A DNA stretch of 60,886 nt from contig JAFYCE010000049.1 of assembly GCA_017539865.1 (NCBI GenBank), positions 1-60,886 of the forward strand. Reading direction: 5' to 3'. The translations under genes and the position numbers were made by a program. The notes under the pieces were generated by a model. That model saw only the letters and a program-made list of their open reading frames with translations, did no database searches and had not been told where the DNA came from. Each line of letters opens with the position of its first letter. Within the stretch, counting starts at the first letter, position 1. This document shows, piece by piece, positions 8,998 to 44,923 of the stretch. The DNA comes from Alphaproteobacteria bacterium (lineage in GTDB: Bacteria; Pseudomonadota; Alphaproteobacteria; CAAGCB01; CAG-977).

Positions 8998-9978
8998 TTA
9001 ATCTCCCCATTTTTTGATGCGGGCGGCGATTTCGCCCGCAACATTCAGCCGTTTATGCCCTCTTTGCCCGACCGGTTCGGGATTCTTTGTCAATTCGACA
9101 GCATATCCGTCGTCGTAAAGTTCCCGATGCAGCAAAGCATGTTTTTTTCCGACCGTTCCCTGCGGCGCGTAAATATAGACAGGCGCATCGGCCGCACAGG
9201 CTTCCGAACACATGGAAACGGAATCCCCCGTCACGATGATATGATCGGCCAACGCTAAAAAGCCGAAATACGGATTTTCCATTTCTTTATTTCCCCAACC
9301 GTAGAAAAATTCCGGTTCCGGCAAAGCGTCACGAATGATTTTTTCCTGCTCCGCTCCCGTACGGCGCGACGTCGTCACCAGAAAAGAACCGCCGCCGAGC
9401 TTTTCGGCCAACGCTTTTGCGCGTTCCGCCAAATCGACGGCCATATCCGTCGTAAAAGGCTTGTCCTTGGTCGCACCGCCGACAATCAAAGCGATACGGG
9501 GCGAAGGAAGGCTTTCAAAAACAGGCGTCCATTTTTCCTTTTCGATGCTGAGACGTTCCGGCGTAATTCTGTGCGGAGCCCCCGTCACGCGCATGATGTT
9601 CGGGCGAATCAGTTTACACCCGTCGTGACGGGGCAGAACAATCAAATCAAAATCGGACAGACTGAAACACCCCGGATACATGATCTGAACGATTTTCGTT
9701 TTGCCGCCTGATTTTTTCTTGATATATCGCAACAGCGGCGCAGCACGGCGCCCCGCGGCGACGGCGATATCGGGAAAAGGTTCCGTCAATCCGGCGACTG
9801 TTTCCGCCGTCACGCCCAATGTCGAAGCCCCTCGTACAACATTCGGCAAAACGACCGATCGGGTATAACGTACTTTTTTAATTTCCGGATTTTTCACAAA
9901 AGCTTCTGCCACACCTAAGGCTTGCGCCGTATTTCCGGCTCTGTCGTCCGCAAGCACCCAAATTGTTTTATCAGTCAT
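8998..9978 (-). CDS. ELM1/DUF1022 family protein (predicted glycosyltransferase-like fold)
   Basis: The N-terminus IWVLADDRAGNTAQALGVAEA and the overall length are typical of the alphaproteobacterial ELM1 family. It is the first gene of a long co-directional block. Confidence 0.6.
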   Translation of the reverse strand: MTDKTIWVLADDRAGNTAQALGVAEAFVKNPEIKKVRYTRSVVLPNVVRGASTLGVTAETVAGLTEPFPDIAVAAGRRAAPLLRYIKKKSGGKTKIVQIMYPGCFSLSDFDLIVLPRHDGCKLIRPNIMRVTGAPHRITPERLSIEKEKWTPVFESLPSPRIALIVGGATKDKPFTTDMAVDLAERAKALAEKLGGGSFLVTTSRRTGAEQEKIIRDALPEPEFFYGWGNKEMENPYFGFLALADHIIVTGDSVSMCSEACAADAPVYIYAPQGTVGKKHALLHRELYDDGYAVELTKNPEPVGQRGHKRLNVAGEIAARIKKWGD

Positions 9979-15343: not shown

Positions 15344-16675
15344 ATGATAAACGAATCAAACAAGACGGCTTTGCCGGAGAAAGCTTCGACAACGGTCATC
15401 AAAACAAACAAAGTGGATACGGCTTCCCTGCCGAAGGTTACTTTACACGAACATATCGAGGGAACGGTCACCCCCGAAATGGCCATGAAACTGGCGCAGC
15501 GTCATCACGTCAAATTGCCGGACAATTTTGTCATGGCGGACGGCCAATATGACAAAGCCGATTTTCCCAACGGACGTTATGCTTATGACGAAAGCGATTT
15601 TTGGGCTTTCATCAATACGTACGACAGCGTCGCGGATTTAATGCGCACGCCGCAGGATTATTACGACGTCACAAAAGATTACCTCAGCAAAAACGCGGCG
15701 GAAGGCGGTGTTTACGCGGAATTGATTTTATCGCCGGCTCATATGGCCGTGGAGGTCAATCCCGAAACGGGAAAAAGCGAATTGTCCGCCCCGCGTTATC
15801 ACGCCATGATGAACGCCATTTCCAAAGCGGCGGCCGAAGTCAAAGAGGAAACCGGATTGGAAACCCGCTTTATTGCAACGGGGGTTCGCAATATGGGCGC
15901 GGAAAACGTCAAACAGGTTGCGGAATTCGTCCGTGACAATCCGCATCCGTTGGTAACGGGCTTCGGCATTGCCGGAAACGAACGCGCCGGCAAATTCGAT
16001 GATTTCGCCGAAGCCTTGTCCATCGCCAAAAGCGCAGGATTGAAACTGGCTCTTCACGCCGGCGAAATTTGCGGTCCCGAAAGCATTAAAGACGCTGTCC
16101 GGCTGGGAGCCTCCCGTATCGGACACGGCGTTTCGGCTCCACAGGATCCGGAAATTATGAAAGAATTGGCGGAAAAGAATGTCATGGTTGAAGTCTGTCC
16201 GACATCCAACCGCATTCTGGTTACGGATTTAAAGGGCGATTTGGCCAACCATCCGGCGCGCACACTGTATGACGCAGGCATCCGGATTTCCTTGAATCCG
16301 GATGATGCCGGAATCTTCGGTACGCATACCGGAAAGGAACACCGGATCAGCGCCGAAAAATTCGATTTCACCAAAGCGGAAATGTTGGATATTACATTAT
16401 GCGGCATTGAAAATTCGTTTGCAGACGTAAAAACACGCAAACAAATCAAAGAGAATGTGTATAGAAACATGTCCTCCGAAGATCGTAAAGAAATGAAAGA
16501 TCTGGCGGACAAGGCTAAGAATCCCGCTTTAAAACAACGACTGGAAACGCGCGTAGCGGAAAGCGAAAAAGTCGCAAAAAAAATGGAGATTCAAAAAAGA
16601 CGCGCCAACGCCATAAAAAGCATGAATACCGCCAGAATGGTTATGTTGGGTAAAAAGGCCGGTCTGACACGTTGA
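15344..16675 (+). CDS. add: Adenosine deaminase with a basic/acidic C-terminal tail of about 75 aa
   Basis: It carries the ADA signatures LHEHIEG, GFGIAGNE, LHAGE, RIGHG, EVCPTSN and SLNPDDAGIF. GAAGGTGG lies upstream of the ATG. Confidence 0.85.
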   Translation: MINESNKTALPEKASTTVIKTNKVDTASLPKVTLHEHIEGTVTPEMAMKLAQRHHVKLPDNFVMADGQYDKADFPNGRYAYDESDFWAFINTYDSVADLMRTPQDYYDVTKDYLSKNAAEGGVYAELILSPAHMAVEVNPETGKSELSAPRYHAMMNAISKAAAEVKEETGLETRFIATGVRNMGAENVKQVAEFVRDNPHPLVTGFGIAGNERAGKFDDFAEALSIAKSAGLKLALHAGEICGPESIKDAVRLGASRIGHGVSAPQDPEIMKELAEKNVMVEVCPTSNRILVTDLKGDLANHPARTLYDAGIRISLNPDDAGIFGTHTGKEHRISAEKFDFTKAEMLDITLCGIENSFADVKTRKQIKENVYRNMSSEDRKEMKDLADKAKNPALKQRLETRVAESEKVAKKMEIQKRRANAIKSMNTARMVMLGKKAGLTR

Positions 16676-39291: not shown

Positions 39292-39365
39292 TGGGGAATA
39301 GTTTAAAGGTAGAACAGCGGACTCTGACTCCGTTAGTCTTGGTTCGAGTCCAGGTTCCCCAGCCA
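39292..39365 (+). tRNA. tRNA-Gln (anticodon CTG)
   Basis: Hand-folded: acceptor TGGGGAA/TTCCCCA (U1-A72, as in bacterial tRNA-Gln), anticodon stem GCGGA/TCCGT, loop CTCTGAC, T-loop TTCGAGT, discriminator G, CCA. Confidence 0.9.
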
Positions 39366-39371
39366 ACACAT

Positions 39372-39398
39372 AAGCCGTTGATTTTCAACGGCTTTTTT
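39372..39398 (+). terminator. Rho-independent terminator after tRNA-Gln
   Basis: A perfect 10-bp stem (aagccgttga / tcaacggctt) with a 3-nt loop is followed by a T-run. Confidence 0.6.
39382..39394. repeat. Left copy of the islet-flanking repeat 'ttttcaacggctt'
   Basis: It is identical to 44677-44689. Because the left site is palindromic, 39368-39381 (acataagccgttga) is also the exact reverse complement of 44680-44693. Confidence 0.5.
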
Positions 39399-39496
39399 GT
39401 TTTCCCGTTTCGGATAAAACCTCTCCGTTTTCTGTTGATAAAAGTTGCGGGCATCAATATCTCTAACTGTAATGATTTCTGAGGAAACCTCGGAAA

Positions 39497-39622
39497 ATGA
39501 ATAAAATTTCAATCCGGTTTTTCGATGATCGAAAAGTTCGCGCCGTTTGGGATGATGAAAACGCCAAATGGCGGTTTTCGGTATTGGATATTATCGGTGT
39601 TTTACGCGGTTTGGACGATTAA
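39497..39622 (+). pseudogene. Truncated 41-codon fragment resembling the N-terminus of Bro-N/phage antirepressor-type proteins
   Basis: MNKISIRFFDDRKVRAVWDDENAKWRFSVLDIIGVLRGLDD* matches the pattern IRxxWDxExxxWxFSVxDxxxVL seen in prophage Bro-N-like proteins. It stops after 41 codons with no continuation in any frame. Confidence 0.4.
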
Positions 39623-39673
39623 GCGTAAGGGGAGAAAAGGCTTTATGATTGTATACCCTAAAACCTTTATGTT

Positions 39674-41971
39674 TCATAGCTCTTTATCTTCTTTTACAAA
39701 GCTTTGTTCCAACGAGCTTTGACAAAGGTATCCGATATAATCATAAACTTCCTCGGCAGAGGCTCCTTGTTCCAATAACGCTTTTGCGACAAGAGCGTAT
39801 TCCATTCCTAAACTGGTTTGGAATACGGCACTGTCATCCGTATTGATGGAAACAGGAACGTCATAATCCGATTTTTTCCGTGTCTTCAAGGAATAAAGCT
39901 TATGGGTGTTCAAAAAGAATAGCGGTAAATCGGAATAATTGTCGATAGGAGATATTTTTCTGTTTGACGACGGATTTGTTTCAACGGCTATTCCTTTTTT
40001 TACCAGTGTTTTTTTCAGTAAACCCTGACATTCGGACAGACATTTAAGATAAATATCGTCTATTTGGATTTCAATACCGTGCGCCCGGTTTCGGATAAAA
40101 GAATCGTCGTATAAATAATGCCAATGAAGTCTTTGAGCCATTTTATTCGAAGAAACCGAACGATAATCCGGATTGTCGATATTTTTGCGCCAAAAATCTT
40201 CTAAAGAAATCAAAGGGCCGTTACACTCATAAAGGAACGGATCGTCCGCTCGCAAACGCCATGCGGACAGATAGGTATCAATGTCTATATTTCGAAAATA
40301 GCCGTCTCCGTTGAATAATTTATTCCTCTCGGAAAAGAAACGGTCCGCGATTTCAAACAAAAGCGACGGATCCGCCTGTCCGGATTTCAGCATAAAGTAT
40401 ATCCAAGCCAAATTATCCAAATATTCCCCTCTGGGAATGACAATACGGTTCATTCTGATATTTGAAATTTGTTCAGGATCCGCACCCAACGCCAAAGCGT
40501 GCCCCAGCCGGTCTCCGCGCCGGAAATTAAAAAAATCAATCGTTTCGTAAATCGCTCTTAATCCGGAACAAAGCGACGTATAGACTTCGCCGACATGGTA
40601 AGTGAAAAACAAATCCTTTTTTTCCGCGCGACAACGCCTGAAATAGGGGGCGAAAAATTCCGGTGCAATGTTCAATTCATTTCCCGCCGCATCAATACCC
40701 AATAAACATTCGCCATAACCGCTCCTCAACACATTCAGTACGCATTGAGCTTGCCGGCTTATCATACGATGTTTTTTCTTCAGCCGTTCAAAAGCTGTTC
40801 CGTTATCATCGATATCGCGTTTTATAAAATGGAATATATAACCGCATCGAACACCGTTTTGTTCGAAAGTTTCCATTTCCTTTTTTATCTTTTTGAAAGC
40901 CCCTCTTTTCAATGGCACTATTCTGAATTCTATTTTGGAAACGATCCCTTCCTCGGAATATTTATCAAAAATGCTTTTATACAAAGCGGCTTTCTGATTT
41001 TCATCAATAAATAAACCTTTTTTATCTTGGCATTCTTGAAATTTTTCAAAGCCCATACCGACATTATCCAATGTAAATTGGAAATAAATTTTTATCAATC
41101 CCACCAAATATAAATTAAACAAGTCCCGAAAGAAGTCAGACTTTTTTGTGATTTTACCGAAGCAGTCTTTTAAAAAACGGCATTCGTTATCATATCTGCC
41201 GCAACGTTCCTTGTGGTGTTCGGCCAGATAAGACTGCATCCATTTTATTTTATCGATACATTCCGAAACATCCGCGTATTCTTTCGCTTTCAGAATTTTT
41301 CTTATATCGGAAAGGAATAAAACGTCTTCATCTTTTTTTTGATACGTCCTTTCATCGAATAAATTCCGATATTCCATGAAAATACGTAAGATTTTCACTT
41401 TAAGATAAAAAATGTCATTAAAACATGCCGATTTATTATAAAACGGCTTTTTATAAATAAAATTGTTCCAGTTGATTTCGGTCGAATAGCCGGACGCGTT
41501 CAAGTGCATATGGTTTTCGGCAACCTTATCCTTTTTCAAGATGCTGTATAATCTGTGATTGTCGTGCTTGAATAAAAAATGTTTCGGAAGATCCGCATGA
41601 AAAGCCGCCATATAAACAATCGCCGGTGCGACATTGATAAAATCGTTCCATTCCAGCAGATCGTCAAATCGGATTTCGATGTTTTCATTTTTATCGATCA
41701 GATATTTTTCAGCGACTTGAACAAATAATTCATCAGCCCAAAAGCACTCTTTTTCCCCGATTTTTTCAAAAACGATATTGTCTAAAATCGTGCGGGAATA
41801 ATTATCCGGATAAAGGCTCAGGTATCTGCTTTCAATCTCCCGCCGGACGTTTTTATCCGCCAGATTAAAGGCAGAACCGTCCATATAGGAGGATTGAGAC
41901 ATTTTAGCGCAAAGCCCGTCAAAATCCGCTTCCTTGTAGATACAACGAATCAAACGTTCATGATTTTTCAT
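39674..41971 (-). CDS. Large divergent adenosine-deaminase-fold protein (RdrB-like, RADAR-type effector candidate)
   Basis: The 765-aa product carries the ordered ADA signatures HMH (aa 154-156), GIDAAGNE (425-432), YHVGE (458-462), RLGHA (488-492), ETNPSSN (664-670) and INTDDSAVF (709-717). Its ATG overlaps the upstream gene by 14 nt. Confidence 0.7.
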   Translation of the reverse strand: MKNHERLIRCIYKEADFDGLCAKMSQSSYMDGSAFNLADKNVRREIESRYLSLYPDNYSRTILDNIVFEKIGEKECFWADELFVQVAEKYLIDKNENIEIRFDDLLEWNDFINVAPAIVYMAAFHADLPKHFLFKHDNHRLYSILKKDKVAENHMHLNASGYSTEINWNNFIYKKPFYNKSACFNDIFYLKVKILRIFMEYRNLFDERTYQKKDEDVLFLSDIRKILKAKEYADVSECIDKIKWMQSYLAEHHKERCGRYDNECRFLKDCFGKITKKSDFFRDLFNLYLVGLIKIYFQFTLDNVGMGFEKFQECQDKKGLFIDENQKAALYKSIFDKYSEEGIVSKIEFRIVPLKRGAFKKIKKEMETFEQNGVRCGYIFHFIKRDIDDNGTAFERLKKKHRMISRQAQCVLNVLRSGYGECLLGIDAAGNELNIAPEFFAPYFRRCRAEKKDLFFTYHVGEVYTSLCSGLRAIYETIDFFNFRRGDRLGHALALGADPEQISNIRMNRIVIPRGEYLDNLAWIYFMLKSGQADPSLLFEIADRFFSERNKLFNGDGYFRNIDIDTYLSAWRLRADDPFLYECNGPLISLEDFWRKNIDNPDYRSVSSNKMAQRLHWHYLYDDSFIRNRAHGIEIQIDDIYLKCLSECQGLLKKTLVKKGIAVETNPSSNRKISPIDNYSDLPLFFLNTHKLYSLKTRKKSDYDVPVSINTDDSAVFQTSLGMEYALVAKALLEQGASAEEVYDYIGYLCQSSLEQSFVKEDKEL

Positions 41972-44360
41972 TTTCTTCCGTCATCTTTTCAAGGATAGCT
42001 TTCGCATTTGGATAGTTTTTGAATATATATATAAAAGTATCCATTTCGCTATCCCATATTTTTCTTCGCTTCTTTATATTTAATGTTTTTCTTATCTCTT
42101 TTATTTTTCCTTTATCTTTATCAGACAGCTCTATTAAACTTAACAATTGCTCAACAAAATCACGTGCATCATAAATGTTTAACTGCTTAAGCTTCATTTT
42201 TACAACCGCTTCATCAAAATTATTTAAATTCTCAAAATCACGATCTATATCCTTCTTTATTCTTTCAATATTTTCAATTAATACATCATCAAAAACAATT
42301 ATATTATCTTCCTTTCTTTTTAATAACAGAGAAATCTTTTCCTTTAACATTTTTTCATAAGGCGTATAAAATGTTGTATTTTTTCCATCAAGCATCCGAT
42401 TGATTTTTTCATAAACATACTTCAATTTTTCTTTTTGTTGATTATCAAAATTTATTCTCACAAAAACGTCAATATCAAAAACGGAATAGAAAACATACCC
42501 ACTATTCGCTGAATTTTCAAAATATTCCTTTTTAAGAACAGCCGTCATCGGATCTGTTCTGTAATTTATTTTCTCTGAATTATTAATGTATTCATCATCG
42601 AAAACAGGACGATATTTTCTATACGAATTATTAATACGTTCGCTATACGGTCGAGTTTCGGTCCAAATCCTACTATTACGCATTATTTTAAAATAGCATA
42701 TTAAATTTATGAATTTTTTTTCTTCTTCATCAAGTATTTCTGTTTCACTATCGACATAACTAATGAAGTTCTCAAACGAATATGTATACCCAAACGTCTC
42801 CGGCATAAACTTTCCATTGATCAGGAGAGAATAATCCTTTTGGTCGTCAAAAGATATATCACCAAAGCTCCGTATAATATCTTTATTAGCTAAATCTAAA
42901 AAAGAGTTTAATAGTTCTATCGAATAAAGAAGTTTTATTAAATAGCAAAGATACATTATCTGTTCACTAGAAGACAATTCTATTTTTATCTTTTCTAAAA
43001 ACTGAAAGACATCACCCATCATTACATTGTAAGTTTCTGTTTTTTTAATAAAAACAATATCGTATTCTTCACTATTTAAAATACCATCAAGCTTTGAGCA
43101 TATATAATAATTTTTATTTCTTACGCTTGTTTTCAACCATTCTTCCAAAATGGAATAATACTCCATATCCAAATTCGCTTTTGCTCTGGAAAGGATATAA
43201 TCCTGATATTTCTTCAGATTAGCTCGCAATTCTGCTTTTTTTATACCGTTTTCTTCATCACGAATTTTATCCATTTCCATCAACATACGCACGAAAGCCA
43301 GCATTTCGCGCAAGCCGTTCGGATAAATCAAATGAACTTTCTCTTTTTCATCAACCGGATCCAGCGGAAGAGCCAGTTTTTCACGAACCAAATTTTCCAT
43401 CAAATCGTGCAGATTTGTTTCTTTATATTTATTTTGATCTTCGTCTGACAATTTATATCCGTTTTCTTTTTTAACGGCAAACGGCTCTAAAATAATCCAA
43501 GCCTTTTCAGTAAAAAATTCTTTTTGCCCTTTTAAATAAATACGACGGGACACCGGCATTTGTTTTTCGTAAAATTGAACGGTCTGATCCTTGATTTCGG
43601 CTATGGAAACAATTTGCTTGTCCATCAAATTTTTATTTTGTTGAATAAAGTGATCCTGAATGATATTCAACAGCTGAATTTCACGGAAAGACAAAATGAC
43701 AATGCAGTTTTTATTCAGCCATTTTTGAATATCTTCTATCATTTGATAAACATATTGATTGGCGACCAAATCCAAATCGTCTATGCACACGACCATTTTG
43801 GTTTTCGAATCTTTTCCTAAAACACCATAAAACGCTTCAATCAGCTCTTTCAAAAGAGCGGCAAAATTGCTTCGTCTTTGAATGTTTTTTACAATATCGG
43901 AAGCGCAGGTATCCTCATAAAATCTTTCTTTGTTCGATTTTATATGGGAAATGACATCCATTATGTCATTTAATTTTTTATTGAAGCGAATATATTTGCC
44001 TTCTGTTTTGTTTTCAAAATTATTGCTCTCTTTTTCTTCTTTATACTTTCTCACTTCTTCAGCCAAAACGCTGATAAAAAATTCGGAGATCGAAAGCGTG
44101 TCGTCAAAAATACTGGGATCAATGATGTCCGTTACAAAAAAATTCTTATTCTTATTTAATTTTTCCCGAACGGCATTGATAAGCGATGTTTTTCCGCATC
44201 CCCGATTGCCGACGATACAGATGATATTGCTGTTGTCTTTTTTATCATCATAACCGTTGCAAAGATTTTCTATCTTCCCGACTTCGGTATTAAAAATGTT
44301 TTCCCCCTCTTTTCCGAGAGCCCCCGTGATTTTATCCCAATTAAACTCTAAATCCTTCAT
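41958..44360 (-). CDS. Large KAP-like P-loop NTPase (RdrA-like, RADAR-type sensor ATPase candidate)
   Basis: The 800-aa product has Walker A GNRGCGKTS (aa 51-59) and Walker B MVVCIDDLDL (aa 189-198) with a spacer of about 130 aa. It has no TM segments. GAGGAAG lies upstream of ATG 44360. The gene is very AT-rich. Confidence 0.65.
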   Translation of the reverse strand: MKDLEFNWDKITGALGKEGENIFNTEVGKIENLCNGYDDKKDNSNIICIVGNRGCGKTSLINAVREKLNKNKNFFVTDIIDPSIFDDTLSISEFFISVLAEEVRKYKEEKESNNFENKTEGKYIRFNKKLNDIMDVISHIKSNKERFYEDTCASDIVKNIQRRSNFAALLKELIEAFYGVLGKDSKTKMVVCIDDLDLVANQYVYQMIEDIQKWLNKNCIVILSFREIQLLNIIQDHFIQQNKNLMDKQIVSIAEIKDQTVQFYEKQMPVSRRIYLKGQKEFFTEKAWIILEPFAVKKENGYKLSDEDQNKYKETNLHDLMENLVREKLALPLDPVDEKEKVHLIYPNGLREMLAFVRMLMEMDKIRDEENGIKKAELRANLKKYQDYILSRAKANLDMEYYSILEEWLKTSVRNKNYYICSKLDGILNSEEYDIVFIKKTETYNVMMGDVFQFLEKIKIELSSSEQIMYLCYLIKLLYSIELLNSFLDLANKDIIRSFGDISFDDQKDYSLLINGKFMPETFGYTYSFENFISYVDSETEILDEEEKKFINLICYFKIMRNSRIWTETRPYSERINNSYRKYRPVFDDEYINNSEKINYRTDPMTAVLKKEYFENSANSGYVFYSVFDIDVFVRINFDNQQKEKLKYVYEKINRMLDGKNTTFYTPYEKMLKEKISLLLKRKEDNIIVFDDVLIENIERIKKDIDRDFENLNNFDEAVVKMKLKQLNIYDARDFVEQLLSLIELSDKDKGKIKEIRKTLNIKKRRKIWDSEMDTFIYIFKNYPNAKAILEKMTEENEKS

Positions 44361-44435
44361 TTTTCTTCCTCTTTTAATAAAGTCTTGTCCGAAGAGAGGG
44401 TTCTTGAATCGTCAGTATGCCGACAAGAAACCGAT

Positions 44436-44444
44436 TTTATATCA
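44436..44444 (-). promoter_or_regulatory. Extended -10 promoter candidate for the ATPase-deaminase operon
   Basis: The minus strand reads TGATATAAA (the TGnTATAAT class) about 75 nt upstream of ATG 44360. No good -35 element occurs at proper spacing. Confidence 0.2.
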
Positions 44445-44676
44445 AAGTCTATCTTTTATAGACGGATTTATCAAACAGTTTAACACTCCGACGTTTATTT
44501 TTAGAACAGCCTGAGAAAATCCGCCATTGTCTCTTTATTACCGATGATTGCCTACCCTGTTTTTACCGATTCGATATGAAAATTTTTTTGAGCCGCCTAC
44601 ACTCCCGTTTCCGTGCTAGCTATTTGTTAGCTTTGAGGCATTTTCAGGCAAAAGAAAAACCATTGAAAACATTATG

Positions 44677-44693
44677 TTTTCAACGGCTTATGT
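44677..44693. repeat. Right copy of the islet-flanking repeat
   Basis: ttttcaacggctt (44677-44689) equals 39382-39394. tcaacggcttatgt (44680-44693) is the reverse complement of 39368-39381. It forms part of an imperfect hairpin, ccattgaaaac-attatg-ttttcaacgg. Confidence 0.5.
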
Positions 44694-44713
44694 TGTTCGG
44701 AGTGAGAGGATTT
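44694..44713 (-). repeat. Duplicated 3' end of tRNA-Pro (att-like scar), 19/20 identical to 44847-44866
   Basis: tgttcggagtgagaggattt compares with tggtcggagtgagaggattt (acceptor 3' strand plus part of the T-arm). It lies 133 nt from the intact tRNA. Confidence 0.6.
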
Positions 44714-44812
44714 ACTCGCGCTGCTCGCCCCTCGGGTCGCCTTCGGCGATACCTTCGCTCACGCTCCGGTGCCGACCTCCTTCTCCGGTTCAATCCGATT
44801 CCCAAATAATAT

Positions 44813-44846: not shown

Positions 44847-44923
44847 TGGTCGGAGTGAGAGGATTTGAACCTCCGGCCCCTACGTCCCGAACGTAGTGCT
44901 CTACCAAGCTGAGCTACACTCCG
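44847..44923 (-). tRNA. tRNA-Pro (anticodon CGG)
   Basis: Hand-folded: acceptor CGGAGTG/CACTCCG, D-arm GCTC/GAGC, anticodon stem CTACG/CGTAG, loop TTCGGGA, T-loop TTCAAAT, discriminator A, CCA. Confidence 0.9.

What the first reader, a model, noticed from the sequence alone, without database searches (positions are those of the whole stretch)
39674..44360. P-loop ATPase plus divergent adenosine-deaminase operon, a RADAR-like or novel ATPase-deaminase anti-phage candidate
Seen in sequence:
- Two large minus-strand genes (800 aa and 765 aa) overlap by 14 nt (ATGAAAAATCATGA), so they are translationally coupled.
- A GAGGAAG RBS and an extended -10-like TGATATAAA lie upstream.
- Gene 1 has Walker A GNRGCGKTS and Walker B MVVCIDDLDL.
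- Gene 2 carries every adenosine-deaminase signature in canonical order. Each one can be matched to the genuine Add in this window: HMH vs HEH, GIDAAGNE vs GFGIAGNE, YHVGE vs LHAGE, RLGHA vs RIGHG, ETNPSSN vs EVCPTSN, INTDDSAVF vs LNPDDAGIF.
Established knowledge: a large ATPase (RdrA) followed by a divergent adenosine deaminase of about 800-900 aa (RdrB) defines the RADAR defence system. RADAR was first reported as RNA A-to-I editing and later as ATP/dATP-to-ITP/dITP conversion during phage infection.
Inference:
- The genome already has a metabolic add, and the pair sits on an AT-rich tRNA-flanked islet next to a phage gene stub.
- It is therefore most likely an abortive-infection-type defence module.
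- I cannot establish true homology to RdrA/RdrB without a search.
- If it falls outside that family, it is a new ATPase-deaminase system.
Basis: partly seen in the sequence, partly recalled or inferred. Interest (0 to 1): 0.85.

Follow-up and report, generated by a model that had tools for sequence, protein, structure and literature searches.

The report
Divergent RADAR anti-phage operon (rdrA-rdrB)
The two large overlapping genes are a divergent copy of the known RADAR anti-phage system (RdrA ATPase plus RdrB adenosine deaminase) on a small mobile islet in an uncultured gut alphaproteobacterium; this is ordinary, except that close relatives carry swapped versions of the ATPase's presumed phage-sensing tail.

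Summary

This is a RADAR system, not a new ATPase-deaminase system.
- Gene 1 aligns over its full length to the solved, experimentally validated Streptococcus suis RdrA (profile E 4.6e-83; best Foldseek hit).
- Gene 2 aligns over its full length to E. coli RdrB (profile E 2.8e-67; Foldseek TM 0.72-0.75). The His tetrad and the catalytic Glu are in register.
- All 19 fetched loci that carry a gene 1 homolog have a gene 2 homolog directly downstream.

Standard annotation would miss it. No PADLOC RdrA profile matches gene 1, and gene 2 scores 151 bits against NCBIfam's RdrB cut-off of 800.

The pair lies in a 5.1 kb AT-rich module between tRNA-Gln and tRNA-Pro. Related strains carry the same module next to different mobile-element or restriction-modification genes.

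The one non-routine point is a ~1.08 kb cassette encoding RdrA's C-terminal domain. It comes in at least three types, 28-38% identical to each other, on backbones that are 93-96% identical at nucleotide level. That fits the published guess that this domain senses phage.

Verdict: new member of a known kind, modest interest.

The parts
41958..44360 (-). rdrA: 800-aa AAA+/KAP-type ATPase with Walker A G56-K57-T58, Walker B D194-D195, a helical insertion at about aa 91-181, and an all-helical C-terminal half
   Evidence: ORF. Pfam KAP_NTPase 5e-12. phmmer against S. suis RdrA 8fnu gives 3.2e-34. Profile A3 against 8fnu gives 4.6e-83 over chain residues 4-844, and 5e-7 against E. coli and C. rodentium RdrA on the ATPase domain only. 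Foldseek top hit is 8fnu at 2.4e-16, then other RdrA chains; the first non-RdrA hit is at 1e-2.
41997..43074 (-). Variable cassette inside rdrA (aa ~430-788, the C-terminal helical domain), exchanged between otherwise near-identical operons
   Evidence: blastn against L002 and L010: flanks 44503-43075 and 41996-39429 are 93-95% identical, and the stretch between them is essentially unalignable, with only one 145-nt piece at 74%. Protein identity is 89-93% in the N-terminal part against 28-33% in the cassette, with three cassette types.
39674..41971 (-). rdrB: 765-aa adenosine deaminase with RdrB-type insertions; metal and catalytic residues H154, H156, H459, E462, H491, D712, D713
   Evidence: ORF. 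NCBIfam RdrB 6.4e-44 and PADLOC RdrB 1.4e-27. Profile A2 against EcRdrB gives 2.8e-67 over chain residues 48-764. AF2 model pLDDT 88.8. Foldseek against 8fnv and 8hr7: E 6e-25 to 8e-22, TM 0.72-0.75; the next hit is an ordinary ADA-like protein at 2e-6. The listed residues are invariant in 38 homologs.
41958..41971 (-). 14-nt overlap between the rdrA stop and the rdrB start (ATGAAAAATCATGA)
   Evidence: Coordinates and sequence. The same 14-nt overlap is in L001 and L002. More distant relatives have a 4-nt overlap.
44361..44520 (-). Conserved upstream region with RBS GAGGAAG (44365-44371) and promoter-like elements (44435-44474)
   Evidence: Sequence and consensus scan. Nucleotide conservation with L001, L002 and L010 starts at 44503-44520 even though the genes beyond differ. 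Promoter function is inferred.
39429..44520 (-). Full extent of the shared RADAR module, found in different genomic contexts
   Evidence: blastn end points against L001, L002 and L010. The upstream neighbours differ: type I RM plus Fic in L001, an integrase/relaxase/HTH_17/Fic element in L002-L004, and tRNA-Pro here.
39497..39622 (+). 41-codon stub of a Bro-N/Fic-family gene, left over from a mobile element
   Evidence: tblastn: 88% identical to the start of the full-length 301-aa Bro-N/Fic gene of L002 and L003. A stub copy also sits next to rdrB in L001-L004 and L010. The stub alone has no significant Pfam hit.
39292..39365 (+). tRNA-Gln(CTG) bordering the islet, followed by a terminator hairpin at 39372-39394
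   Evidence: ARAGORN, Rfam, terminator scan. The same tRNA-Gln, MarC and LepA flank is present in L001, L002 and L004.
44847..44923 (-). tRNA-Pro(CGG) bordering the islet on the other side
   Evidence: ARAGORN, Rfam.
44697..44713 (+). 17-nt direct repeat of the tRNA-Pro 3' end (TCGGAGTGAGAGGATTT), an att-like scar
   Evidence: Two exact copies, at 44697-44713 and 44850-44866; 0.04 expected by chance.

Best explanation
This is a two-gene RADAR anti-phage system of the Streptococcus suis-like branch. It is carried on a horizontally acquired 5.1 kb AT-rich module in an uncultured gut alphaproteobacterium.

Proposed mechanism, by homology: RdrA is an AAA+/KAP-type ATPase that should form a ring. 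Its helical 'crown', inserted between Walker A and Walker B, should dock onto RdrB. RdrB is a zinc adenosine deaminase that should form a shell-like oligomer. [quoted passage not shown] That poisons the nucleotide pool and aborts the infection. The C-terminal helical domain of RdrA may sense the infection.

Shown here: homology of both proteins, intact catalytic residues, gene order and overlap, and mobility of the module.

Inferred from published RADAR work: oligomeric assembly, ATP-to-ITP chemistry and phage protection.
For: RdrA homology:
- phmmer against S. suis RdrA 8FNU gives 3.2e-34.
- The family profile gives 4.6e-83 across chain residues 4-844, and also hits E. coli and C. rodentium RdrA at 5e-7 on the ATPase domain.
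- The top 20 Foldseek hits are all RdrA chains; the first other protein (ORC4) is at E 1e-2.

RdrB homology:
- The profile gives 2.8e-67 against EcRdrB over residues 48-764.
- The AF2 model has pLDDT 88.8 and pTM 0.90.
- It superimposes on RdrB over its full length at TM 0.72-0.75, against TMq of about 0.3 for ordinary adenosine deaminases.

Active sites:
- H154, H156, H459, E462 and H491 align with the EcRdrB zinc tetrad and catalytic Glu, that is H152, H154, H498, E501 and H530.
- These residues, D712/D713, Walker A G56/K57/T58 and Walker B D194/D195 are invariant in 36-38 homologs.

Family link: the closest named relative of gene 2 is a Carnobacterium iners deaminase (852 aa, 34% identity over 99% of the query, E 1.3e-103). 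It has the same species and length as an RdrB in the published RADAR catalogue, Table S1 of PMC9994260.

Gene pairing: a gene 2 homolog lies directly downstream of the gene 1 homolog in all 19 fetched loci that carry one, and the two genes overlap in every locus where gene calls were listed.

Experimental anchor: S. suis RADAR protects E. coli from T-even phages, and RdrB converts ATP to ITP (PMC9994260).

Mobility: GC dips across the module and tRNAs flank it. The same module is embedded in an integrase/relaxase element or sits next to type I RM in related strains.
Against: - No experiment exists for this locus.
- The curated profiles do not call it. No PADLOC RdrA model hits gene 1 even at E<=10. 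NCBIfam RdrB scores 150.7 bits against a cut-off of 800.
- The RdrA model is of low confidence: pLDDT 61.6, and TM only 0.50 to 8FNU at rmsd 25.
- Identity to characterised RADAR proteins is low: 15-19% in the structural alignments.
- The trigger, and whether RADAR acts on nucleotides or on RNA, is still debated in the literature.
- A near-identical natural sequence carries a nonsense codon in rdrA, so the system is dispensable at least sometimes.
Confidence: 0.88

Rival explanations
1. It is a RADAR homolog that acts by A-to-I editing of RNA, as RADAR was first described, rather than by deaminating free ATP and dATP.
For: The original report of RNA editing by C. rodentium RADAR is summarised in PMC9994260. 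PDB entries 8HRA and 8HRB are titled 'RdrA ring in RNA-loading state'. Weak A-to-G signals of about 4% were seen for CrRADAR.
Against: The fold and active site of gene 2 are those of mononucleotide/nucleoside deaminases of the amidohydrolase type, not ADAR/TadA-type enzymes. For E. coli RADAR, protection occurred without detectable editing, and purified RdrB converted ATP to ITP.
Confidence: 0.07
2. It is a distinct ATPase-deaminase defence system that merely resembles RADAR. On this view a KAP/PifA-like abortive-infection NTPase was recruited independently to a deaminase.
For: PADLOC assigns gene 1 only to PifA (1e-8) and mad8, not to RdrA. Pfam calls it KAP_NTPase. Gene 2 is far below NCBIfam's RdrB cut-off.
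Against: The PifA match covers only aa 40-197, the P-loop region. Homology to S. suis RdrA spans the whole protein, including the C-terminal domain, which has no other known relatives. PDB itself labels 8FNU a 'KAP NTPase domain-containing protein', so the KAP label and RdrA membership are compatible. Gene 2 shares the full RdrB architecture, including the parts outside the deaminase core.
Confidence: 0.03
3. It is a decaying or non-functional remnant of a mobile element, or a metabolic purine-salvage deaminase with a chaperone ATPase, and has no defence role in this host.
For: One near-identical metagenomic contig (L005) has E466* in rdrA. The rdrA reading frame is also interrupted in MAG locus L013. 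The neighbouring Fic gene is reduced to a stub.
Against: Both ORFs are intact in the window and in L006, with every catalytic residue present. The genome has its own canonical add gene. The pair is conserved as an overlapping unit at 45-96% identity across different genomic sites, which argues for selection on the pair.
Confidence: 0.02

Closest known systems
RADAR of Streptococcus suis SS993 (RdrA structure PDB 8FNU; Duncan-Lowey et al. 2023, PMC9994260)
   Same: - Two-gene rdrA-rdrB operon.
- RdrA aligns end to end (profile E 4.6e-83), including Walker A and B, the helical insertion and the C-terminal helical domain.
- It is the best structural hit for gene 1.
- That system was shown to protect E. 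coli from T-even phages.
   Different: - Low identity: 19% in the Foldseek alignment.
- RdrA here is shorter, 800 aa against 907.
- The host is an uncultured gut alphaproteobacterium, not a Firmicute.
- It is untested experimentally.
RADAR of E. coli P0304799.3 and Citrobacter rodentium DBS100 (PDB 8FNT, 8FNV, 8FNW, 8HR7-8HRC)
   Same: - RdrB shares the full-length fold at TM 0.72-0.75.
- The zinc tetrad and catalytic Glu are in register.
- The RdrA ATPase domain is homologous at 5e-7.
- Gene order is the same.
   Different: - RdrA similarity is limited to the ATPase domain; the C-terminal domains are not alignable by sequence.
- The PADLOC RdrA profiles miss gene 1.
- There is no RdrC or RdrD accessory gene here.
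Cad1 (CARF-fused adenosine deaminase of type III CRISPR; PDB 9OFB/9OFD; PMC11645235)
   Same: It has an adenosine-deaminase fold and is used in antiviral immunity, converting ATP to ITP. PADLOC's CARF_ADA profile hits the C-terminal deaminase part of gene 2 at 1.2e-11.
   Different: Gene 2 has no CARF domain and there is no CRISPR context. The structural match is weak (E 1.8e-2, TMq 0.27). Regulation is by a partner ATPase, not by cyclic oligoadenylate.
Housekeeping adenosine deaminase Add (Pfam PF00962; the window's own add gene at 15344-16675)
   Same: It shares the catalytic motifs in the same order and the amidohydrolase fold.
   Different: - Gene 2 has an N-terminal extension of about 150 aa.
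- It has about 150 extra residues between RLGHA (aa 488) and ETNPSSN (aa 664); the same two motifs are about 25 aa apart in the window's Add.
- HMH and GIDAAGNE are 271 aa apart, where published RdrB carries a large insertion that divides the catalytic core.
- It scores 48 bits against the 216.55-bit cut-off of TIGR01430.
- It is coupled to an ATPase on a mobile islet.
PifA (F-plasmid KAP-type NTPase, phage T7 exclusion)
   Same: The P-loop region is similar: PADLOC PifA 1e-8 over aa 40-197.
   Different: The match covers only the nucleotide-binding core. PifA has no deaminase partner, and the rest of gene 1 matches RdrA instead.

Membership tests
RADAR (RdrA/RdrB) | RdrA: full-length homology to an experimentally validated RdrA | tested here: met
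   phmmer against 8FNU (S. suis RdrA) gives 3.2e-34. Profile A3 gives 4.6e-83 over chain residues 4-844. The top 20 Foldseek hits are all RdrA chains.
RADAR (RdrA/RdrB) | RdrA ATPase catalytic motifs: Walker A GKT, Walker B DD, sensor 1 acidic residue, sensor 2 Arg | tested here: met
   G56-K57-T58 and D194-D195 are invariant. They align with the GKT and DD motifs of S. suis, C. rodentium and E. coli RdrA, published for E. coli as G81/K82/T83 and D221/D222. By my count on the alignment, E227 aligns with Ec sensor-1 D253. Sensor 2 is only inferred: invariant R351 in the PNGLREM motif.
RADAR (RdrA/RdrB) | RdrA alpha-helical 'crown' insertion between Walker A and Walker B, which contacts RdrB | tested here: met
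   About 130 residues separate Walker A (aa 51-59) from Walker B (aa 189-198). They are predicted as five helices, H91-181, and align with the corresponding segment of 8FNU. Model confidence here is only 50-80 pLDDT. Contact with RdrB was not tested.
RADAR (RdrA/RdrB) | RdrA C-terminal alpha-helical domain with no relatives outside RdrA | tested here: met
   aa 430-800 are predicted all-helical and align with the C-terminal part of 8FNU. An exhaustive search with aa 430-790 found 35 representative clusters. Nearly all are proteins of 800-970 aa matched in their C-terminal part; the few others are short fragments and one 2270-aa repetitive protein.
RADAR (RdrA/RdrB) | RdrB: adenosine-deaminase active site with His tetrad plus catalytic Glu | tested here: met
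   H154, H156, H459 and H491 plus E462 align with EcRdrB H152, H154, H498 and H530 plus E501. They are invariant in 38 homologs.
RADAR (RdrA/RdrB) | RdrB-specific architecture: three large insertions around the deaminase core | tested here: met
   Full-length Foldseek match to 8FNV and 8HR7 at TM 0.72-0.75, against TMq of about 0.3 for ordinary ADAs. The profile alignment spans chain residues 48-764. Motif spacing shows an N-terminal extension of about 150 aa and about 150 extra residues after the last catalytic His; HMH and GIDAAGNE are 271 aa apart. Published insertions are described.
RADAR (RdrA/RdrB) | rdrA and rdrB encoded in tandem, rdrA first | tested here: met
   The window shows a 14-nt overlap. 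The order is the same in all 19 fetched loci that carry a gene 1 homolog, in at least five different genomic neighbourhoods.
RADAR (RdrA/RdrB) | Passing curated profile thresholds (NCBIfam RdrB equivalog; PADLOC RdrA) | tested here: not met
   NF041744 scores 150.7 bits against a cut-off of 800. No PADLOC RdrA hit appears at E<=10. These are annotation thresholds tuned to enterobacterial-type sequences, not biological criteria. The published family explicitly includes S. suis RdrA, which is under 20% identical to E. coli RdrA.
RADAR (RdrA/RdrB) | Supramolecular assembly: RdrA heptamer, RdrB dodecamer, RdrA docked on RdrB | not testable with these tools
   Only monomer models were made. This needs multimer prediction or cryo-EM.
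RADAR (RdrA/RdrB) | [quoted passage not shown] | not testable with these tools
   Known for the E. coli, C. rodentium and S. suis systems. No data exist for this locus.
Cad1 / CARF-ADA | N-terminal CARF sensor domain fused to the deaminase | tested here: not met
   The PADLOC CARF_ADA match covers only aa 649-759 of gene 2, which is deaminase core. There is no CARF Pfam hit. Cad1 structures match only at E 1.8e-2.
Housekeeping adenosine deaminase (Add, TIGR01430) | Protein of about 330 aa that passes the equivalog cut-off | tested here: not met
   Gene 2 is 765 aa and scores 48 bits against the 216.55-bit cut-off. The window's real add gene scores 241 bits on PF00962.

The most novel reading that the evidence does not exclude
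The C-terminal domain of RdrA (window 41997-43074) is an exchangeable specificity cassette. Homologous recombination would swap divergent sensor alleles between two conserved anchors. One anchor is the ATPase-plus-crown half of rdrA. The other is the last ~10 codons of rdrA together with rdrB. The RdrA-RdrB docking partners would therefore stay matched while the range of phages sensed changes. If so, the natural chimeras found here offer a ready-made experiment on what RADAR senses, which is still unknown. They comprise three cassette types, 28-38% identical to each other, on backbones 93-96% identical in nucleotide sequence.
Probability: 0.4. Interest if true: 0.55.

Novelty: new member of a known kind. 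Interest (0 to 1): 0.3.

Why it matters
The locus itself is a routine finding: a known defence system in one more lineage. Two practical points follow.

1. Current profile sets miss this branch. No PADLOC RdrA model matches, and the NCBIfam RdrB equivalog cut-off is far above its score. RADAR is therefore probably under-counted in gut Alphaproteobacteria and similar uncultured groups.

2. The trigger and sensor of RADAR are unknown, and the published hypothesis places sensing in the RdrA C-terminal domain. The sharp cassette-like replacement of exactly that domain fits this hypothesis, because the crown-bearing ATPase half and RdrB stay nearly identical. It also supplies natural allele sets for domain-swap experiments.

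Tried and rejected
- PADLOC scan for RdrA at E<=10: no RdrA hit, only PifA, mad8 and a CARF-AAA profile on the P-loop. I rejected this as evidence against RADAR, because direct comparison with S. suis RdrA is strongly positive.
- tblastn of RdrA against PLSDB plasmids and INPHARED phages: no match. There is therefore no evidence that this branch is plasmid- or phage-borne in those collections.
- Rfam scan of the whole window: only the five tRNAs, and no regulatory RNA near the operon.
- Pfam on the 41-aa stub and on the 77-aa ORF at 44576-44809: nothing significant. The stub was identified by tblastn against related loci instead.
- Search for a third gene (RdrC or RdrD): none in the window or in any related locus.
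- Attempt to define att sites: only a 17-nt tRNA-Pro 3'-end repeat 153 nt from the tRNA, and a 14-nt inverted match between two terminator hairpins. These do not bracket the RADAR module, so its insertion mechanism stays unresolved.
- Exhaustive search with the C-terminal cassette for other domain contexts: it essentially occurs only in RdrA-like proteins. It is not a domain borrowed from another family.
- The RdrA AF2 model is of low confidence (pLDDT 61.6). I used it only for secondary structure and for ranking Foldseek hits, not for residue-level claims.
Full report
**Observation.** The window has two long minus-strand ORFs: 41958..44360 (800 aa) and 39674..41971 (765 aa). They overlap by 14 nt, sequence ATGAAAAATCATGA.
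- A GAGGAAG Shine-Dalgarno sequence lies at 44365-44371, 4 nt before the start codon.
- The TGATATAAA element lies at 44435-44443, and the consensus scan finds a TTGATA/17/TAGACT site at 44474-44446.
- All quoted motifs are present at the stated residues.
- tRNA-Gln (39292-39365, +) and tRNA-Pro (44847-44923, -) flank the pair.
- GC drops to 0.27-0.36 inside the pair, against about 0.47 around it.
- The window has a separate canonical add gene at 15344..16675, matching Pfam A_deaminase at 1.9e-71.

**What the proteins are.**

*Gene 1.* Library scans give Pfam KAP_NTPase (5e-12) and only a P-loop-level PifA hit in PADLOC. No PADLOC RdrA profile matches, even at E<=10. Direct comparison with solved structures is decisive.
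- Gene 1 matches PDB 8FNU at 3.2e-34. 8FNU is the Streptococcus suis RdrA of Duncan-Lowey et al. 2023 (PMC9994260).
- A profile of 36 homologs matches 8FNU at 4.6e-83 over chain residues 4-844.

*Gene 2.* It hits NCBIfam RdrB at 6.4e-44, but with 150.7 bits against a cut-off of 800. It hits PADLOC RdrB at 1.4e-27.
- It matches E. coli RdrB (8FNV, 8FNW) at 5e-27.
- A profile of 38 homologs reaches 2.8e-67 over chain residues 48-764.
- In these alignments H154, H156, H459, E462 and H491 fall on EcRdrB H152, H154, H498, E501 and H530. Those are the published zinc tetrad and catalytic glutamate.
- These residues and D712/D713 are invariant across the homologs.
- In gene 1, G56, K57, T58, D194 and D195 are likewise invariant.

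**Structure.**
- The AlphaFold2 model of gene 2 is confident (pLDDT 88.8, pTM 0.90).
- Its eight best Foldseek hits in the PDB are RdrB chains, with E 6e-25 to 8e-22 and TM 0.72-0.75 over the full length.
- Ordinary adenosine deaminases follow at E 2e-6 and cover only the core, with TMq about 0.3.
- Motif spacing shows the RdrB-type extra segments. Compared with the window's Add, gene 2 has a 150-aa N-terminal extension and about 150 extra residues after the last catalytic His. HMH and GIDAAGNE are 271 aa apart, where published RdrB carries its second insertion.
- The gene 1 model is poor (pLDDT 61.6). Even so, its top 20 hits are all RdrA chains, led by S. suis RdrA at 2.4e-16. The first unrelated protein, ORC4, is at 1e-2.

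**Conservation of the pair.**
- Homologs of gene 1 are few: 55 clusters in the word-indexed search.
- In genomes they come from uncultured gut and rumen Alphaproteobacteria or Rhodospirillales MAGs.
- Metagenome hits include human-gut metagenome assemblies.
- In all 19 fetched loci that carry a gene 1 homolog, a gene 2 homolog follows directly, at 51-100% identity in the 11 loci compared by tblastn.
- The overlap is 14 nt in close relatives and 4 nt in distant ones.
- No third gene such as RdrC or RdrD is ever present.
- Outside this clade, the nearest relatives of gene 2 that carry a species name are from Bacilli: Carnobacterium, Exiguobacterium, Brochothrix and Streptococcus, at 31-34% identity over the full length.
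- The Carnobacterium iners protein (852 aa) has the same species and length as an RdrB listed in the published RADAR catalogue.

**Context and mobility.**
- Nucleotide comparison shows that a 5.1 kb module, window 39429-44520, is shared at 93-96% identity with loci whose upstream neighbours differ.
- Those neighbours are type I RM plus Fic in L001, an integrase/relaxase/excisionase-like/Fic element in L002-L004, and tRNA-Pro here.
- In more distant relatives the bare pair sits between housekeeping genes at other sites.
- The 'phage gene stub' at 39497-39622 is the first 41 codons of the Bro-N/Fic gene that is full-length in L002.
- A 17-nt repeat of the tRNA-Pro 3' end lies at 44697-44713. It looks like an old integration scar but does not bracket the module.

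**Mechanism.** By homology, RdrA should form an AAA+ ring. Its helical crown lies between Walker A and Walker B, at about aa 91-181 here, and should dock on RdrB. [quoted passage not shown]
- Shown here: homology, intact sites, operon structure and mobility.
- Inferred: assembly, chemistry and protection.
- Minor rival: RNA editing, as RADAR was first reported.

**A non-routine detail.** Against L002 and L010, the operon is 93-95% identical in nucleotide sequence from 44503 to 43075 and from 41996 to 39429. It is essentially unalignable from 43074 to 41997, which encodes RdrA aa ~430-788.
- Among proteins whose N-terminal parts are 86-93% identical, there are three C-terminal types: A (window, P0001), B (P0002, P0003, P0006) and C (P0005).
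- The three types are only 28-38% identical to one another.
- The matching RdrB proteins stay 92-96% identical.
- The right-hand junction keeps the last ~10 codons of rdrA, which include the rdrB start.
- The cassette has relatives essentially only in the C-terminal part of RdrA-like proteins: 35 representative clusters out of 1.84 billion.
- The published structures show that the crown contacts RdrB, and the authors suggest that the C-terminal domain is the sensor.
- The mosaic pattern is what one would expect if sensor alleles are exchanged while the docking partners stay matched. This is an inference, not a demonstration.

**Verdict.** This is a divergent but clear member of the RADAR family, S. 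suis-like branch. It is not a new ATPase-deaminase system. It belongs to a known kind and is of modest interest. Its value is in showing a gap in current profile-based annotation and in offering natural RdrA C-terminal chimeras for testing what RADAR senses.

Noticed in passing
window 41997-43074 (rdrA aa ~430-788); compare L002 7290-8505 and L010 9284-10342: There are sharp recombination-like junctions. The RdrA C-terminal domain is replaced by divergent alleles: three types, 28-38% identical at protein level. The DNA on both sides is 93-96% identical. L001 shows the opposite pattern, with the C-terminal part plus rdrB at 97-99% and the N-terminal part at 87-96%.
   Followed up: yes
window 42965; L005 12380-12382: A 16.6 kb metagenome contig that differs from the window at only 4 positions carries a G-to-T change turning rdrA codon 466 (GAA) into TAA. 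This splits the gene into 465 aa and 332 aa. A third contig (L006) is intact. It is either a natural loss-of-function allele or a sequencing error.
   Followed up: partly
L013 about 9914-9944: In MAG UBA6411 the rdrA homolog's reading frame ends after 637 aa and similarity resumes 30 nt later. This is a frameshift or stop, so either a pseudogene or an assembly error.
   Followed up: no
window 44697-44713 and 44850-44866: There is an exact 17-nt direct repeat of the tRNA-Pro 3' end (TCGGAGTGAGAGGATTT), 153 nt apart, with 0.04 expected by chance. The stretch between the copies holds a terminator hairpin and a GC-rich segment. It looks like the scar of an almost completely deleted integrative element.
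   Followed up: partly
window 39368-39381 and 44680-44693: There is a 14-nt perfect inverted match (ACATAAGCCGTTGA) between the terminator hairpin after tRNA-Gln and the hairpin after the pseudo-tRNA-Pro end. It may be chance, with roughly 0.2 expected, or a shared terminator type.
   Followed up: no
window 39497-39622; L002 1674-2579 and 10935-11057: The 41-codon Bro-N/Fic gene stub next to rdrB is present in all close relatives. In L002, L003 and L010 a second, full-length copy of the same gene lies at the other side of the element. The RADAR-carrying segment is therefore bracketed by direct repeats of that gene's 5' end.
   Followed up: partly
window 15344-16675: The ORF holding the canonical add gene is 443 aa as listed. 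The deaminase domain occupies aa 30-373, leaving a C-terminal tail of about 70 aa with no significant match.
   Followed up: no
window 41958-44360: No PADLOC v2.0.0 RdrA profile detects this RdrA. NCBIfam has no matching RdrA model, and its RdrB model scores far below cut-off. Standard pipelines would leave this RADAR branch unannotated.
   Followed up: yes
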